DNA of 64,000 nt from an uncultured virus (IMG/VR IMGVR_UViG_3300042564_004671) (lineage: Duplodnaviria > Heunggongvirae > Uroviricota > Caudoviricetes). Location of the stretch: IMG/VR virus record IMGVR_UViG_3300042564_004671; one strand, given 5' to 3'. The notes below the pieces were generated by a model. That model was not told where the DNA came from. It was given only the letters and a program-made list of their open reading frames with translations, and ran no database searches. A program made the translations under genes and the position numbers. Shown here one piece after another: positions 4,174 to 62,997 of this stretch (its first letter is position 1; every line of letters starts with the position of its first letter).

Positions 4174-4908
4174 TTAAATGTTTTTTAAATCATTTTTGAT
4201 TTTTTCCATACCGGTTGATGCCAATTCTTGGTAATGAGTAAATAAGTGTGTTCTATATTCTGGTATATAAAAATCAACATCTGATAAATCTACATAATAA
4301 ATAGAAGCACTTTCTTTGGTTAAGAATGGAATTGTGTTAGCAGGTGATACTTTCATTGAAGTTCCAACAACAATACAAACATCACATTCTTTAGCAGCAG
4401 TCGTAGCCATATCAACAAAATTTGGATCTAGATTTTCACCAAACCAAACAATATGAGGTCTTAATTGAGAACCAGTTGTTGGACATTTATCACCAATTTT
4501 AATTGGATTATATCCTATATCAATAACGGCATCTAATGGTGATGTTTTATGATCATACATACAACCTCTAGCCTTTGTTAACTCACCATGTAAGTGAATT
4601 ACATTAGTTGAACCAGATCTTTCGTGTAAATCATCGACATTTTGAGTCACAACGGTAACATCATAGTCTTTTTCTAATTCAGCAATTATTTTATGTGCCA
4701 AATTTGGTTCAACTTCATTCATTTGAGCACGTCTCATATTGTAGAAATTAAGAACTTTTTCTCTATCTCTACGCCACCCATCAGGGGTAGCAACATCTTC
4801 TATTCTGTGATTATACCAAAGCCCATCGTCTCCAGTTCTGAATGTAGCAACACCACTTTCAGCTGAAACTCCCGCTCCAGTAAAAATCAATACTTTTTTC
4901 TTTTCCAT
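4174..4908 (-). CDS. cobB: Sir2-family NAD-dependent deacylase
   Basis: TGAGVSAESGVATFR, PNLAH, TQNVDDLHERSG, HLHGEL, LRPHIVWFGE, VGTS. Confidence 0.95.
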   Translation of the reverse strand: MEKKKVLIFTGAGVSAESGVATFRTGDDGLWYNHRIEDVATPDGWRRDREKVLNFYNMRRAQMNEVEPNLAHKIIAELEKDYDVTVVTQNVDDLHERSGSTNVIHLHGELTKARGCMYDHKTSPLDAVIDIGYNPIKIGDKCPTTGSQLRPHIVWFGENLDPNFVDMATTAAKECDVCIVVGTSMKVSPANTIPFLTKESASIYYVDLSDVDFYIPEYRTHLFTHYQELASTGMEKIKNDLKNI

Positions 4909-4917
4909 AATATTTTA

Positions 4918-4948
4918 CAAATTTAATTAATTAAAGTTTAATATCAAA
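4918..4948 (-). promoter_or_regulatory. Bacteroidota housekeeping-sigma-type promoter
   Basis: TAAATTTG at 4918-4925 (-), TTTG about 19 nt upstream, 9 nt before the Sir2 start. Confidence 0.6.
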
Positions 4949-4963
4949 GAAACTCTTAATAAA

Positions 4964-4972
4964 TAATATATA
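4964..4972 (+). promoter_or_regulatory. putative late promoter TAATATATA
   Basis: 22 nt upstream of the 1496-aa gene; same 9-mer precedes more than 20 starts. Confidence 0.6.
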
Positions 4973-4994
4973 CATAAAAGAATTACAGAGTTTA

Positions 4995-7900
4995 ATGGCA
5001 AATTTTTCAGACTATCCACTTAGGCCAAAAATACCTAATCTAGGAACATCCTCAATACCAGCTGTGGTAGCAACTACATCGATGAAATCACCGTTGGATA
5101 ATTCTTTTATTAAAAATATGAGTTCTATCATATCCAAAAAACCTTTATTAATTTCAAAGGCAGATTTAATAGGTCTTGGGAAAAATAAAAAGTTAGTTGG
5201 ATATAATCCTTTACAAGACTTAGTATCAGATGCTGGTAAATCATTTAGTCCTAGAATTATAAACTGGGTTGAACCATATGAAATAAATGGTATTGATAAA
5301 AGTTTATTTTACACTGAAGTCAATTCAGGACTTAAAGTTGGAGATAGAGTATTTATATTAAATGGAAATTATGATAGTGATAGTTTAATTATATCCAATA
5401 AATATAAAAAAGGCAGAGACGGGTATAAAGTTCTTTTTGTTGATAATTGTCAAATAGTCTTAGATATAGATTATACTGGAGTTTTACCATATTTAGAAGA
5501 ATCAATAGATAAATTTATAAAAGTTTATTACATAAAAAATGTACAAGATTTTTTACATGCTAATAGACATGCAACTACTGGATCTGCTGAATTTGATTAT
5601 AAATTTAACTACTACCAAAATAACATAGCATTTATTGACCAAGATTATACAACAACAACAAGTTGGGGTAGAAATGGTGGTATTATAGGTTCACCTGGAT
5701 TCTTTGTAAAATCTGGTATAACACAAAGTTGGACAAATATTAGTAATGATTTAATTAATAGTGGATCATATTCATATGCACTTTCACCTATTTATTCAAA
5801 TAATGATAGAATAAAAATAATGGAAAGTGACTTTACCTATAATGGTAAAACATTTCAAGAAGGATTTGTATATAAATGGAATGTAGGACCTACTCAATCA
5901 GAGTGGATAGTTGATGTTAAATACTCTAAACCACTTATAACAAAGGGTAATTTTAGAGATGGTAATTTTAATGGATTTTGGAATACTGGTTTATTTGGTA
6001 GTCAAAATAAACAAATAAAGTGGGAGGGCAAAACTTCAACTTGGAAATCAGGAACTTTATTAAATACAAATTGGATAAAAGGAACATATGAGGCTTTATA
6101 TACATTACCAGAGAGTTATTACTCTGGGTTAAATGATGATGGATTTCCATATCAGAAACTAAATACACCTAATAATTCAGGTAGGAGTTTTAATTTTATA
6201 ATAGACTCTATTATAGAACAATCAACAATTAATAATGGTACAATTATTAATTCAATAATAGGAACTTCATCAGCAACTTATTCAGTTGTTGAAAACTATT
6301 TGATGAATTATACAACACCTTATCCAAATCTTATTAAGAAAGCTTATTTTGAAGATTGTAATTTTAATAATGCTTACATTTCTAATTCTGAATTAAAAAA
6401 TATTAAAACAAATAACTCAAAGTTTGAAAATGTAAAATCAGTAAACTCTTATTTTAGAAACTCTGTTTTTATCAACTCAAATTATAATAGTGATAACATT
6501 ATAAAAATATTAGGATATGATGAGTTAAATGCAACTGAATATCCAAGTATAGGTTCAACATTTAGTATTGGTGGATCATATGCTTCATTAAATGATGTAT
6601 CTCAAAAAGTTTATAAATTTTATATAAACGAAAGTGGTTATAATAGATTAAAAACTGGAGATAAACTATACATAAAAGGTATAAAGTTAAATAATAGTAG
6701 TAAAGAAATACTAAATCTATTTGATAAGAAATTAAGATTAGGGTCTTGGACAGAATATATTGATGATTATAACATCTATACAAATAAATTCTTTAAAAGA
6801 GGTATTGATGTCTCTGCATTTTTATCTTCTCCTTTAGAGAATTCATATTTATTCGAAAGTGTTAGAAAACCAATCGATCCATTGAACACAACTTCACCTG
6901 ATACTTATCACACTTCAGTTTATTCTGCTAACCCAAATAGTAATCTTTATTCAATAGATATTTGGATGAGTATTTATGATATAAATGATGAAGTTTTATT
7001 ACCTTCTAGTCCAGGTTTAAATGGTATGACATCACCAACACCAAATAGACCATTTTTGAAAGAATATTTAAATATAAATACTAGTTGGGAATATCCAACT
7101 AAATATGATTATATTTCAGCAACTGGATCAGGCCCAGTAAAATTAGGAAACATAGTAGATGTGACAAACGCATATATCGTTGATGCTGATTTTGAAAGTG
7201 GTATTTTTGAAAACTCAAATTGGAATAGTGGATATCATATAAATTCTCAAACTGACTTAAATATAACAGATTCGTCAGCAACTTCATCATTAAATGATGG
7301 AGTTTATAACTTATCATTTACTTCAAGTAATAGTTTATTAGCAACTTCTTTATATAATCAATTTCATCAAGAAACTGAATATCCTTTATTTGTAGGAGAG
7401 GTTGTATTTTTAGATGGTGTTGATTTTAATGATGGTACAACCATTACAAGATTACCAGATGCTTACAAAGTAGTTTCAAATAATTTATTAGGAGTTTATA
7501 AATTAGAAGAGTTAGTAACAGGTACAGTTAGTATCATATCATCATTAACTCAATCAACAGGAACTTTCTCTACAACTAATGCGGGTAATAGATATGGTTA
7601 TATTAAATCACTTAAATTCAATAAATCAAAAATAAAATCTGGTATCTTTAGAAGACCTTATATCACAAACTCTATAATTGAGAACGATTCTTATGATTCT
7701 TTGGATAAAGATTTTAGTGATATACCAAAACTTAGAAACTTAGTAGTAACAGACTCTTTATTTACAAATAAGTCAAATAGATTATCATCAGCTACTTATC
7801 TTTATTCATCGTTTTTATCTGGTAGTGATAGTTGGAATAATGGTATAATACAAAACTCTATATGGGTTAATGGTACTTTCTCAAGTGGTGTTATAAAAGA

Positions 7901-15325: not shown

Positions 15326-16858
15326 ATGTTAAAAAGATACTTTGATTTTGTAAATGAATCTCTAAACTTAATACTAGAGTCCGATGTTGTTTATTCTAGT
15401 AAACTTAGAAATGTATTATCTAAAATAGATAGTGAAATCTCTAGAAAACTTATTGAGATAGAAAATAGAGACCTTCCAGTTAGAAGTAACTATTTTGATA
15501 TCATTTCAGATAAAAATGATATGGTTTCATTTATACCAGATAGAAAAGCTCAAGAAATACTTAAAGATGTTAAAGAATTCTGGAGATTCAATGGATCTGG
15601 CGGAGGTTGGTTAAAACACTCAGAATCAAATGCTGAATTGTTTTCTAAATTAGGATATGTTCCAGAAGGAAATCCTTATTCACCAAACTCAAGAGATATT
15701 GGTGAAATAGTTGCAGAAACTACTTCAGAAACATCTGGTAACACATATTGCTGGGTTAAATTCATGAATGGTACTGGAGAATATATTGGACAAGGAGTTT
15801 ATAATAAAGAAAAACTTATAAAAGCAGAAGGAATTAAAGAGAAAGAAGTTTGGACTAAAAGTAGACAAGAAATCGGTGTAGGTAGAGGAATTAGAGCTTT
15901 ATTATTAACAACTGGTGAAAAGTTTTTAGATAAAGATATTGAACAATTTGTTAATATTTATAAAGCAACAATTGATAAATTAAACGATAAGTTTAGTTTT
16001 TTTGAAGTTGTTAGTGGAACAGATATTCATTATTGGTATAATTATGATAATTATTACCAAAGAAGTGGATCATTAGGAAGTTCTTGTATGGCAAGTGCAA
16101 GAGCAAGTTGGTTAGAAATATACACTGCTAATCCAGAACAATGTTCAATGGTTATATTCAAATCACCAGATGATATTAATAAAATAGTTGGAAGAGCTAT
16201 CTTATGGACTTTAACAGATGGTAAAAAGTTCATGGATAGAATCTATACTATAAATGATTCAGATGTTCAGTTGTTTAGAGAATACGCTAAAGAAAATGGA
16301 TGGTATGCAAAATATCATAATAGTAGTACATCAAATTCCGATGCTTACGCACCAGATGGTACAAAAACAAACTTGAATTTAAGGGTTAATCTTTCTCAGA
16401 AAGACTACGACTATTTTCCTTATTTAGATACTTTAAAATATTTTACACCAGGAAGTGGAATATTAAATAACACTGATGGTGAATATGCACTCGAAGATAC
16501 TGGAGGTGGTCATTCATCTTGTGATTGTTGTGGTGGAAGTGGTAGAACTGAATGTGGTGATTGTGATGGAAGAGGAGTAGAAGACTGTAGTAATTGCGAT
16601 GGAAGTGGAAAAGAAGAATGCTCAGAATGTGATGGTAATGGGAAAAACACTTGTAATAATTGTGATGGTTCAGGAAAAGTAGAAGATGATGAAGGAAATG
16701 AGATTGATTGTGATGAGTGTGATGGAGATGGTGAATTAGAATGTGATGATTGTAATGGAAGAGGTAAAGTAGATTGTGATGAGTGTGATGGAGATGGTGA
16801 ACACGATTGTAATAGTTGTGGTGGAGATGGTGAAGTTGATTGTTACGAATGTAACTAA
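15326..16858 (+). CDS. protein with capsid-targeting-like leader, SCM/DRIY/PYLD domain and CxxCxGxG Zn-finger array
   Basis: MLKRYFDFVNE; GSLGSSCM, GRAILW, MDRIY, FPYLDT; 9 CxxCxGxG repeats plus a terminal CxxC. Confidence 0.7.
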   Translation: MLKRYFDFVNESLNLILESDVVYSSKLRNVLSKIDSEISRKLIEIENRDLPVRSNYFDIISDKNDMVSFIPDRKAQEILKDVKEFWRFNGSGGGWLKHSESNAELFSKLGYVPEGNPYSPNSRDIGEIVAETTSETSGNTYCWVKFMNGTGEYIGQGVYNKEKLIKAEGIKEKEVWTKSRQEIGVGRGIRALLLTTGEKFLDKDIEQFVNIYKATIDKLNDKFSFFEVVSGTDIHYWYNYDNYYQRSGSLGSSCMASARASWLEIYTANPEQCSMVIFKSPDDINKIVGRAILWTLTDGKKFMDRIYTINDSDVQLFREYAKENGWYAKYHNSSTSNSDAYAPDGTKTNLNLRVNLSQKDYDYFPYLDTLKYFTPGSGILNNTDGEYALEDTGGGHSSCDCCGGSGRTECGDCDGRGVEDCSNCDGSGKEECSECDGNGKNTCNNCDGSGKVEDDEGNEIDCDECDGDGELECDDCNGRGKVDCDECDGDGEHDCNSCGGDGEVDCYECN

Positions 16859-20374: not shown

Positions 20375-20560
20375 TCACCAGATTTGTGGGAAGTTAGTTG
20401 GTCCTTTTGGAGTAGAAGTTATAATAACATTAGGAACATCTATTCCAAATATTTTACCTATTTTTATTTTTCTTAAATATCTTTTAGAATATTCAACACC
20501 TGATGTATCTTTTTCAATGAAGTGAATACCTGGTCTCACATATCTACCTATTCTGTTCAT
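20375..20560 (-). CDS. small protein: RxxKI tag + terminase coupling-motif fragment
   Basis: RKIKIGKIFG followed by VIITSTPKGPTNFPQIW; start set at MNRIG. Confidence 0.65.
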   Translation of the reverse strand: MNRIGRYVRPGIHFIEKDTSGVEYSKRYLRKIKIGKIFGIDVPNVIITSTPKGPTNFPQIW

Positions 20561-21041
20561 TTGATTTCTTCTTTTTACTTCTTCTTGTTTTCTTGTGAGT
20601 TTTAGATGATTCAGCTCCATATTTATAATCTAAATAGAATAAAGTACCTGATGGAGCAGACATTGGAGTTACTCCTTTTTTCATCAACTCTTTATATTCT
20701 TCATCATCTTCTAACTTCTTTTCAGTAAATTCACCACCTTCAATAACAGCTTCAATTTTACCATCACGATTTTCAGAATTTACTCTACTTTTTACATCAT
20801 CAATTTCTTCTTTTGATGCGAATCCTATTATTTCATTGGACATTAATTTTGATGATACTTTCATAGCCATTGGTAGTAAACTTGGAAACTCTTCAGTTTT
20901 AGTTTCTTCTAATATTTGATTTGATTGATTTTCGGCTAACTGAGCTAAATTGTCTAATTGAGATCCAGTCATACCCATAGACCCTAAGATAGGAGCCCAT
21001 TTTTTCATTAATTCTTCTTTATTTGGTTGTTTCATAAACAA
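20544..21041 (-). CDS. major-capsid (gp23) N-terminal fragment with inserted RxxKI tag
   Basis: KKWAPIL..ENQ..LLPMAMKV..[RDGKIEAVI]..VTPMSAPSGTLFYLDYKY. Confidence 0.7.
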   Translation of the reverse strand: MFMKQPNKEELMKKWAPILGSMGMTGSQLDNLAQLAENQSNQILEETKTEEFPSLLPMAMKVSSKLMSNEIIGFASKEEIDDVKSRVNSENRDGKIEAVIEGGEFTEKKLEDDEEYKELMKKGVTPMSAPSGTLFYLDYKYGAESSKTHKKTRRSKKKKSNEQNR

Positions 21042-21070
21042 AAAAACTTTTCTTGTTATAGAAAAGTTTT
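21041..21070. terminator. possible intrinsic terminator
   Basis: aaaaacttttct...agaaaagttttt inverted repeat downstream of 21081..21392(-). Confidence 0.45.
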
Positions 21071-21080
21071 TGTTTTTAGT

Positions 21081-21392
21081 TTAGTAGTTAAAGTTTAAGA
21101 AATCATATTCTTTAAGTATAAGTTGTTTGACTTTTTCAAAGTTTTCATCTGATAAAACATAATACTTTTTATTAAACCAACCAATCATTTGATTAATAAT
21201 AACATCTTCTGCTTCTCCATTTCCTGAGGTAGAGTAAAAATCAGGATCCTCTTCATCTGGAATCCATTGTTTGATTTCTTTTTCTAACATTTTCTTTACA
21301 GAATCAGATTTATACTCTTCTTTAATTTTAGTAATTGCAAAAGTAGTATCTTGTTGTTCTACATTCTCGTTATATTTTTTTAAGTATTTCAT
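21081..21392 (-). CDS. hypothetical protein with capsid-targeting-like leader
   Basis: MKYLKKYNE; TAATATATA at 21397-21405 (-). Confidence 0.6.
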   Translation of the reverse strand: MKYLKKYNENVEQQDTTFAITKIKEEYKSDSVKKMLEKEIKQWIPDEEDPDFYSTSGNGEAEDVIINQMIGWFNKKYYVLSDENFEKVKQLILKEYDFLNFNY

Positions 21393-62729: not shown

Positions 62730-62758
62730 AAAATCCCACTTAATAAGTGGGATTTTTT
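62730..62758. terminator. bidirectional intrinsic terminator
   Basis: aaaatcccactta-a-taagtgggatttt. Confidence 0.75.
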
Positions 62759-62997
62759 ATTTCTATAGTTCCGTAAAAGTTATTATTTATAATCTTTTTA
62801 GAGTATCTACTCATAATTGATTTACTTGGTGAGAATTCATCTTTAACATCTAAACCTAAACCAAATATCTTATTAATCTTTCTTTTTCTACTTACATTCT
62901 TAGAAGTATATCCAGATATAACAGAAGTGGTTGTCAATGGAATATAAGGAGCAAAAACATAACCTTGTTCTAAATTACTTTTCTTTCCTATTATCAT
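62740..62997 (-). CDS. major-capsid (gp23) C-terminal fragment with inserted RxxKI tag
   Basis: QGYVFAPYIPL..[RKRKINKIFG]..FSPSKSIMSRYSKKIINNNFYG. Confidence 0.7.
   Translation of the reverse strand: MIIGKKSNLEQGYVFAPYIPLTTTSVISGYTSKNVSRKRKINKIFGLGLDVKDEFSPSKSIMSRYSKKIINNNFYGTIEIKNPTY

What the first reader, a model, noticed from the sequence alone, without database searches (positions are those of the whole stretch)
20544..21041. Major capsid N-terminal mimic with the tag spliced into it
KKWAPILGSMG...AENQ...LLPMAMKV...EII and VTPMSAPSGTLFYLDYKY match the T4-like gp23 N-terminal pattern (KWxPxL..ENQ..DLVxVQPMxxPxGxxFxL). Between two normally adjacent motifs there is an insert of about 50 aa carrying RDGKIEAVI. 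The protein stops at 165 aa and cannot form an HK97 shell. The equivalent region of T4 gp23 contains the Gol peptide sensed by Lit.
Basis: partly seen in the sequence, partly recalled or inferred. Interest (0 to 1): 0.8.

Follow-up and report, generated by a model that had tools for sequence, protein, structure and literature searches.

The report
Tagged chimeric capsid-fragment gene, megaphage
A giant uncultured phage keeps a small, conserved gene stitched from short pieces of capsid-protein N-termini (two like its own, one like that of an unrelated phage group) around a helical tag shared by about one gene in eight; it cannot build a shell, is predicted to be made before the capsid genes, and probably works as a molecular mimic whose target is still untested.

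Summary
The gene (likely start 21035, 163 aa) aligns in three pieces to an intact 583-aa capsid protein elsewhere in the genome, with a ~50-aa helical insert carrying an R-x-x-K-I-x-x-I tag. It is no exon or relic: 724 short homologues, dN/dS 0.2-0.5, no longer form. All 5 of 5 capsid-fragment genes of this genome carry the tag, and a 735-kb relative uses a different tag (DPYGEE) on similar fragments. Pieces A and B resemble the phage's own capsid protein; piece C and two other fragments resemble Immutovirus-type capsid proteins. The gene has a promoter of the type found before replication genes and the late sigma factor, inside a conserved hairpin. A specific Gol/Lit decoy is weakened, since the insert splits the Gol-like stretch at shifting places. 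Best reading: a pre-late, tag-docked mimic used in conflict, slightly more likely against rival phages' head assembly (0.35) than against host sensors (0.30). No partner is shown. This scan met the family before on other DNA; I found no paper on it.

The parts
20544..21035 (-). The gene, 163 aa from the conserved ATG (TAG stop at 20544-20546)
   Evidence: reading TAG as Q adds only 11 residues; relatives stop with TAA 17, TAG 3, TGA 2 of 22
20922..21023 (-). Piece A (res 5-38): two helices like the N-terminal propeptide of the phage's own capsid protein (res 7-40)
   Evidence: own-type in 44 of 46 scored members
20826..20888 (-). Piece B (res 50-70): first half of the Gol-equivalent stretch, like own capsid res 91-110
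   Evidence: own-type in 73 of 85 scored members
20676..20825 (-). Insert (res 71-120): long helix 75-99 plus short helix 112-120; the most confidently predicted part
   Evidence: pLDDT 87-96 over res 81-120
20742..20768 (-). Tag R-x-x-K-I-x-x-[IV]-I (res 90-98); R90 is the only invariant column of the 76-member alignment
20619..20675 (-). Piece C (res 121-139): strand motif closer to Immutovirus-type capsid proteins (13 of 19 identical) than to the phage's own (7 of 19)
20547..20618 (-). Lysine/arginine-rich tail, poorly conserved and absent in some relatives
21056..21082 (-). Promoter-like site AAAC-N18-TATAA, of the type found before helicases, SbcD-like nuclease and the late sigma factor (inferred pre-late class)
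21036..21075 (-). Conserved hairpin with U-rich 3' arm ending at the ATG; the TATAA element lies at its loop
   Evidence: -12.1 kcal/mol, z -3.7
20375..20620 (-). Overlapping downstream mini-gene: tail-sheath N-terminal motif, then the tag, then a terminase-like IITSTP motif
   Evidence: (sheath E=3.3e-5; terminase E=0.019, weak); syntenic in 6 relatives
62740..62997 (-). Second tagged capsid fragment in the window (85 aa): C-terminal capsid piece with the tag inserted in its middle; second half Immutovirus-type
   Evidence: E=9e-9 to the Mel-JY01 capsid protein

Best explanation
A pre-late, tag-docked molecular mimic used against rival phages. Shown: the protein is a stand-alone, selected chimera of capsid N-terminal pieces around a portable tag helix. 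Inferred: (1) it is transcribed from its own pre-late promoter with the replication genes, and the overlapping hairpin stops or silences late read-through from the upstream late gene, so it is present before capsid protein and fades when the phage builds its own heads; (2) its propeptide-like helices and strand motif bind the partners that a nascent T4-type capsid protein binds (scaffold, neighbouring subunits), with piece C tuned to a foreign, Immutovirus-type capsid lineage; (3) the tag docks it on a common, still unknown partner that localises, holds or destroys what it catches. The effect would be to spoil head assembly of co-infecting T4-like phages. Steps 2 and 3 are untested.
For: Three of the five tagged capsid fragments of this genome are best matched by a foreign capsid lineage: alignment scores 107-119 (one of eight 91) vs 39 for the own protein (71-aa fragment), 62-90 vs 28 (second half of the 85-aa fragment), 70-81 vs 40 (piece C); other Mahaphage capsid proteins tested score at most 56, 33 and 59, so a plain ancestral state fits poorly. 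The 735-kb relative joins the same foreign-type piece C to its different tag. Immutoviruses infect Flavobacterium, and the largest genomes of this clade are predicted to infect Bacteroidetes (PMC7162821, passages). With 47 core-gene profiles, fragments came almost only from capsid, head protease, portal, terminase and sheath, and tags were enriched among them (4 of 22 vs 2 of 138; 6 of 141 vs 3 of 670; 5 of 74 vs 13 of 786). Tagged genes avoid the late ATATATA motif (0 of 22 here; 4 of 32 vs 193 of 402 operon leaders in the 635-kb relative). dN/dS 0.19-0.47 in six pairs.
Against: Pieces A and B are own-type, and the two longer fragments (249 and 258 aa) are own-type too, which an anti-rival tool would not need. 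Capture from a co-infecting phage explains foreign likeness without any function against it. Pieces are only 19-55 residues and scored by pairwise alignment against a 19-sequence panel, with no tree. Most tagged proteins match nothing, so the tag is not specific to mimics. In the 735-kb relative the tagged genes do not avoid the late motif (10 of 17 vs 182 of 390). Promoter classes rest on motif statistics, with no transcript data.
Confidence: 0.35

Rival explanations
1. Decoy or antagonist of host sensors that read short capsid motifs (Lit-, CapRel- or Thoeris-like). Made before the capsid protein, it occupies the sensor or its cofactor without activating it, because the insert breaks the epitope, and the tag parks or removes the sensor.
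For: The fragments come from proteins known to trigger defence: capsid, portal, terminase, prohead protease (10.64898/2026.01.04.697583 abstract and sections 11-12; PMC9712102 passages; PMC13728456 passages). The copied stretch aligns with the Gol region, which binds EF-Tu (PMC3014915 passages). Pre-late timing fits. The 249-aa sister fragment folds as an HK97 core (pTM 0.78; T4 head E=2.8e-7), the shape Avs sensors wrap.
Against: The Gol-like stretch is split at shifting places and piece B can be lost. Avs7, 8 and 10 bind the A-domain, which this protein lacks. A foreign-type piece protects the phage's own capsid protein only if the sensor cross-reacts. A mimic of a trigger risks setting the sensor off.
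Confidence: 0.3
2. Exaptation: the working part is the tag helix with its ~50-aa context, and the capsid pieces are raw material kept for folding or for a new, unrelated binding job.
For: Insert residues are as conserved as the capsid-like ones (R90 96%, N89 90%); pieces A and B are each lost in some members (17 of 64 complete members lack A); the tag is also grafted as an insertion into a 536-aa protein whose orthologue lacks it.
Against: Piece C keeps capsid residues at 88-99% and recurs with a different tag in another lineage; five separate genes tile one capsid fold.
Confidence: 0.17
3. Helper or timer of the phage's own head assembly: it holds scaffold or protease before the capsid protein arrives and is cleaved at a retained I-x-E site.
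For: Pieces A and B are own-type; an [ILV]-x-E motif follows piece A in 19 of 38 members against 7.6 in shuffles (the role of this motif as a T4 gp21 site is recalled).
Against: Pre-late promoter and insulation from late read-through; located about 95 kb from the head genes; piece A is dispensable; the family was not found in four other huge-phage genomes; piece C is foreign-type.
Confidence: 0.13
4. Exon or decayed copy of a split capsid gene.
For: None beyond the partial homology.
Against: The true capsid gene is intact, 583 aa without stops; no further capsid sequence in six frames for about 3 kb downstream; standard genetic code (95% coding); dN/dS below 0.5; no form of 287-2000 aa among 937 candidates (weak evidence alone).
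Confidence: 0.02

Closest known systems
T4 gp23 major capsid protein (Pfam PF07068; PDB 6uzc, 7vrt) and its N-terminal quarter with the Gol region of the Gol-Lit-EF-Tu exclusion system
   Same: Homologous to the first ~135 residues: N-terminal helices and the stretch aligned to T4 G113-G133.
   Different: No spine helix, A-domain or rest of the P-domain; ~50-aa tagged insert inside the Gol-like stretch; pre-late promoter; stand-alone beside an intact capsid gene.
T4 gp24 vertex protein (capsid paralogue)
   Same: A second, dispersed gene derived from the capsid protein.
   Different: gp24 keeps the whole HK97 fold and is a late virion protein (role recalled); this protein has no globular fold in the model (pTM 0.37) and scores at background against gp24.
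Satellite capsid-interference proteins (P4 Sid, PICI CpmAB, PLE CapR/TcaP; recalled, Sid and the Vibrio satellite scaffold appear as PDB titles)
   Same: Possible mode of action: diverting or blocking another phage's head assembly.
   Different: Those are not pieces of capsid protein and carry no shared tag; no sequence likeness was found or tested.
Phage anti-defence mimics and sponges (Ocr, Tad, Acb; 10.1101/2025.06.06.658234 passages)
   Same: Small pre-late proteins that mimic a molecule in a conflict.
   Different: The passages seen describe DNA mimics and nucleotide sponges; the word capsid does not occur in that text.
Shared short address motifs of T4 (capsid targeting sequence of internal proteins; clamp-binding C-terminal tails; both recalled)
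   Same: One short motif on many unrelated proteins.
   Different: The R tag is mostly C-terminal or inserted in loops, is on ~12-14% of genes, and almost never co-occurs with the N-terminal targeting-like motif (0 of 22 here, 1 of 141 in the 635-kb relative).

Membership tests
gp23-type major capsid proteins (PF07068) | Sequence match to the family profile above its cut-off | tested here: not met
   19.1 bits against 24.4, residues 123-155 only; homology itself is supported
gp23-type major capsid proteins (PF07068) | Complete HK97 fold (spine helix, P- and A-domains) | tested here: not met
   Homology ends at capsid residue 134; model has four helices, pTM 0.37, no PDB match at E<=0.001
gp23-type major capsid proteins (PF07068) | Gene in the head cluster under a late promoter | tested here: not met
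   About 95 kb from the capsid gene; AAAC-N18-TATAA site, no ATATATA
gp24-type vertex paralogues | Near full-length HK97 fold | tested here: not met
Gol peptide (Lit/EF-Tu trigger) | Homology to the Gol region of gp23 | tested here: met
   Alignment of capsid N-termini with T4 gp23; Gol limits recalled
Gol peptide (Lit/EF-Tu trigger) | Contiguous ~20-29-residue core | tested here: not met
   Split by 50 residues here, at shifting places in the family; core size from PMC3014915 passage
Gol peptide (Lit/EF-Tu trigger) | Binds EF-Tu and promotes or blocks Lit cleavage | not tested
Split or intron-interrupted capsid gene | Missing parts encoded nearby and no intact gene | tested here: not met
T4-type internal head proteins with capsid targeting sequence | N-terminal targeting motif and late promoter | tested here: not met
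   Neither present; tagged and targeting-motif genes do not overlap in this genome
Anti-defence or anti-phage interference proteins | Measured effect on a defence system or on a rival phage | not testable with these tools
   Needs experiment

The most novel reading that the evidence does not exclude
Mahaphage-type megaphages run a modular adaptor system: pre-late mini-proteins made of pieces of capsid and other head proteins, partly taken from rival phage lineages, each fused to a lineage-specific docking tag (R-x-x-K-I in one lineage, DPYGEE in another) that recruits one effector, so that rival heads or host capsid sensors are captured and removed before the phage builds its own shells.
Probability: 0.25. 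Interest if true: 0.92.

Novelty: categorically new. Interest (0 to 1): 0.72.

Why it matters
Capsid proteins are a main trigger of bacterial immunity and hard for a phage to change. A selected set of tagged capsid fragments would be a new way out of that bind, or a new weapon between phages that share a host. Either way the fragments mark which short surfaces of the capsid protein matter in these conflicts, and the tag gives one handle on the function of 10-14% of the unexplained small genes of some of the largest phage genomes. All parts are small and can be tested in cultured Flavobacterium phage-host pairs.

Tried and rejected
Complex prediction of this protein with the 249-aa sister fragment (split-fold complementation): no answer, score 0.00, no evidence either way. 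Fold search of the 163-aa model: nothing at E<=0.001. PDB sequence searches: none with the single protein; T4 gp23 only at E=0.46 with the profile. NCBIfam: only weak, unrelated hits. ESM Atlas: three clusters at 0.84-0.85, two with a Gp23 share; leads only. RNA runs: contigs from 2 of 3 runs laid cover parts of the gene, but contigs cannot show transcription, strand or start, and word shares were 0.05-0.06. Tag swap between orthologues: inconclusive, 0 of 2 small pairs and 0 of 154 reciprocal best pairs carry both tags. Tag as a DNA repeat: rejected, codons follow background usage apart from a lean to ATA at one isoleucine. TAG recoding: rejected. Pairwise BLAST test that tagged genes are more often fragments of any longer protein: not enriched in the two complete genomes (3 of 141 vs 13 of 670; 6 of 74 vs 46 of 786); enrichment appears only for core-gene profiles. 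A scan of viral contigs for the hairpin sequence gave mostly unrelated hits (1 profile hit among the loci returned). The tagged sheath fragment of the 735-kb genome is not clearly foreign (139 own vs 126), and the sheath motif of the downstream gene is mixed (5 of 7 own-type). No tree of the fragments was obtained, so the ancestral-state alternative is tested only by pairwise scores. Locus search with P0149 found nothing.

Full report
Observation. The ORF lies on the minus strand at 20544-21041 and holds every motif quoted. Its homologues start at the ATG at 21035, so the protein is most likely 163 aa. It matches Pfam Gp23 below cut-off (E=0.00094) and PHROG 138 (E=1e-5). The window is part of a 175,660-base linear virus record whose true capsid gene lies at 116028-117779, is 583 aa long and has no stops. 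A profile of the small gene's family hits that capsid protein in three stretches, 7-40, 91-110 and 112-134 (E=3.2e-9 among 361 ORFs); the second and third are adjacent in the capsid protein and are separated by about 50 residues in the small protein.

The phage. The capsid protein is 73% identical to those of two uncultured phages of 635 and 642 kb, 51-53% to those of 636 and 735 kb, and 29% to Lak phages. Those four sizes match the largest genomes of the Mahaphage clade, predicted to infect Bacteroidetes (PMC7162821, passages; the link by size is my inference). The record is therefore probably a fragment of a megaphage.

A real, selected gene. 724 of 774 candidates of 90-289 aa are homologous; none of 937 candidates of 287-2000 aa is. 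An exhaustive search gave 203 clusters at 50% identity, and the best 150 are 46-236 aa long. dN/dS over residues 1-140 is 0.19-0.47 in six pairs that share this gene and are not independent. No further capsid sequence lies in any frame for about 3 kb downstream, and the genome uses the standard code. The exon and relic readings fail. The model shows helices 6-19, 25-41, 75-99 and 112-120, no globular fold (pTM 0.37) and no PDB match.

The tag. R-x-x-K-I-x-x-I occurs in 26 of 211 genes here (3.9 expected; 15 at the C-terminus, 0.3 expected) and in 138 of 981 genes of the 635-kb genome (16 expected). Gene sets are my own ORF calls (ATG, 40 aa or more); the two complete genomes were read in 20-kb pieces, so genes at the cuts are split. 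Tag codons follow background usage, so the motif is kept at protein level. R90 is the only invariant column of the 76-member alignment, and the tag's R, K and I are invariant in the 61-member family of a sister fragment. The 735-kb genome has the R tag at background (16 of 1067, 15 expected) but carries another motif, DPYGEE, in 91 genes (0.6 expected). That motif was absent from five other huge genomes; the R pattern was strong only in the 642-kb genome among five tested (67 vs 7 control). Most tagged proteins match no family (91 and 140 proteins scanned, that is 17 of 22, 74 of 74 and 140 of 141 tagged small genes).

One of five. A profile of 83 related capsid proteins finds five short genes in this genome (E=5.9e-10 to 0.035): this one, a 71-aa spine-helix piece, 249- and 258-aa core pieces, and an 85-aa C-terminal piece at window 62740-62997 with the tag again inserted in mid-motif. 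All five carry the tag, against 21 of 205 other genes (p=2e-5). The 249-aa piece folds as an HK97 core (pTM 0.78). The complete relatives have such fragments too, with R tags in the 635-, 636- and 642-kb genomes and DPYGEE on some (3 short ones and one longer gene of 12 hits) in the 735-kb genome. With profiles of 47 core genes, fragments came from capsid, head protease, portal, terminase and sheath, with one weak helicase hit, and tags were enriched among them in all three genomes (four untagged hits are cut artefacts and were left in the counts). The overlapping downstream gene joins a sheath N-terminal motif (E=3.3e-5), the tag and a terminase-like motif (E=0.019).

A chimera. Across 150 representatives, piece A is own-type in 44 of 46 scored, piece B in 73 of 85, but piece C is Immutovirus-type in 81 of 106. 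Piece C shares 13 of 19 residues with many capsid proteins of that lineage and 7 of 19 with the phage's own. The 71-aa piece scores 91-119 against eight Immutovirus-type capsid proteins, 39 against its own and at most 56 against other Mahaphage ones; the second half of the 85-aa piece scores 62-90 against 28 and at most 33. T4 scores lower than the Immutovirus type (52, 76, 22). A 484-kb huge phage also has this capsid type. The 735-kb genome has a 79-aa gene with the same foreign-type piece C and its own tag. The two long pieces are own-type. These are pairwise scores on short stretches; no tree was obtained, so a retained ancestral state is disfavoured, not excluded.

The Gol question. The stretch copied aligns with the T4 region that holds Gol (limits recalled), a 29-residue region that binds EF-Tu (PMC3014915, passages). 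But the insert cuts it before the V-x-P motif in 25 of 64 complete members and after it in 35 (86 of 150 were incomplete by my patterns and left out), and one relative lacks piece B. Contiguity of a Gol-like core is therefore not what selection keeps. The constant unit is the tag helix plus piece C. Avs7, 8 and 10 bind the A-domain, whereas Lit and CapRel read short motifs (10.64898/2026.01.04.697583, sections 11 and 12), so among sensors only the short-motif kind could be a target of this protein.

Timing. Three upstream motifs sort the genes. ATATATA precedes capsid, portal, head protease and 16 of 24 genes with a targeting-like N-terminus, and none of 22 tagged genes. AAAC-N17/18-TATAA shows a sharp spacing peak in three genomes and precedes the late sigma factor, two helicases and the SbcD-like nuclease, so I read it as pre-late. 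This gene has that site at 21056-21082. Its TATAA sits at the loop of a hairpin that runs to the ATG (z -3.7), present in 11 of 13 loci, some of them near-identical, including one with a different upstream gene, and in 26 of 41 further family loci (several others keep the promoter without the hairpin). Inference: a transcript from this promoter lacks the 5' arm and is translated, while read-through from the upstream late gene is ended or silenced. The avoidance of the late motif also holds for operon leaders of the 635-kb genome (4 of 32 vs 193 of 402) but not for the DPYGEE genes. No transcript evidence was obtained.

Mechanism. A protein that copies capsid assembly surfaces, is made before and apparently kept out of the late phase, and partly copies a foreign capsid lineage with the same host phylum is best read as a conflict tool with a docking handle. 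I put interference with rival heads at 0.35, decoying of host sensors at 0.30, exaptation at 0.17, own assembly at 0.13, exon or relic at 0.02. The first two are close and may both hold. No binding partner is shown.

Novelty. Nine full-text searches found no description of tagged capsid fragments or of either tag; the library lacks most subscription papers, and I read no supplements, where gene tables of the huge-phage papers might list these genes. I saw passages or named sections of seven papers, none in full. This scan noted the same family and tag on other DNA; those notes are not independent support. The gene fails the membership tests for capsid, vertex, Gol and internal-protein families, so I class the design as new, with its function open.

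Noticed in passing
W04 (LR756501.1), genome-wide; e.g. L113, L129, L457:1444-1683: A second lineage-specific tag, DPYGEE-x-W, on 91 of 1067 genes, including capsid, portal, protease and sheath fragments; unlike the R tag it also occurs in proteins with a targeting-like N-terminus.
   Followed up: partly
L118:1303-2673 (W04 497197-498567, minus): A 456-aa protein with the DPYGEE tag ends in a sheath N-terminal motif followed by the capsid piece B motif, the same pairing as the two adjacent mini-genes in the window.
   Followed up: no
window and G000, genome-wide: Three promoter-like classes: TA-x-x-TTTG (host type, recalled), AAAC-N17/18-TATAA (pre-late) and ATATATA (late); about 24 genes start with a T4 capsid-targeting-like motif and have the late class.
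   Followed up: partly
G000:C1:110230-110979 (L203:12230-12979, minus): 249-aa tagged protein folds as a minimal HK97 core without E-loop insertion domain; 90 homologues; a candidate decoy for fold-reading sensors.
   Followed up: yes
L114, L124, L130, L110, L111: A separate, untagged class of capsid-derived genes copies the glycine-rich linker after the propeptide, often behind a targeting-like N-terminus.
   Followed up: no
L123, L131, L451: Untagged 170-200-aa mini capsid proteins joining N-terminal helices to spine-helix and C-terminal pieces, in the 735- and 462-kb genomes.
   Followed up: no
W02 120830-122440 (minus) and window-external G000 82725-84392: The R tag sits as an insertion in a 536-aa protein whose W04 orthologue lacks it, and inside a 555-aa helicase in both G000 and W02.
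   Followed up: partly
L092 (around 4200-5480): In one relative the gene with its hairpin follows a 252-aa gene whose G000 homologue is followed by another tagged capsid fragment (258 aa): the same slot holds different fragments.
   Followed up: no
L120:1498-1695 (W03): A 65-aa gene with an uninterrupted Gol-like stretch followed by two tags, in a genome where the tag is otherwise rare.
   Followed up: no
window 15326-16858 (+): 510-aa protein with a targeting-like N-terminus and a long run of CxxC-x-G-x-G repeats like a DnaJ zinc-finger region (label recalled).
   Followed up: no
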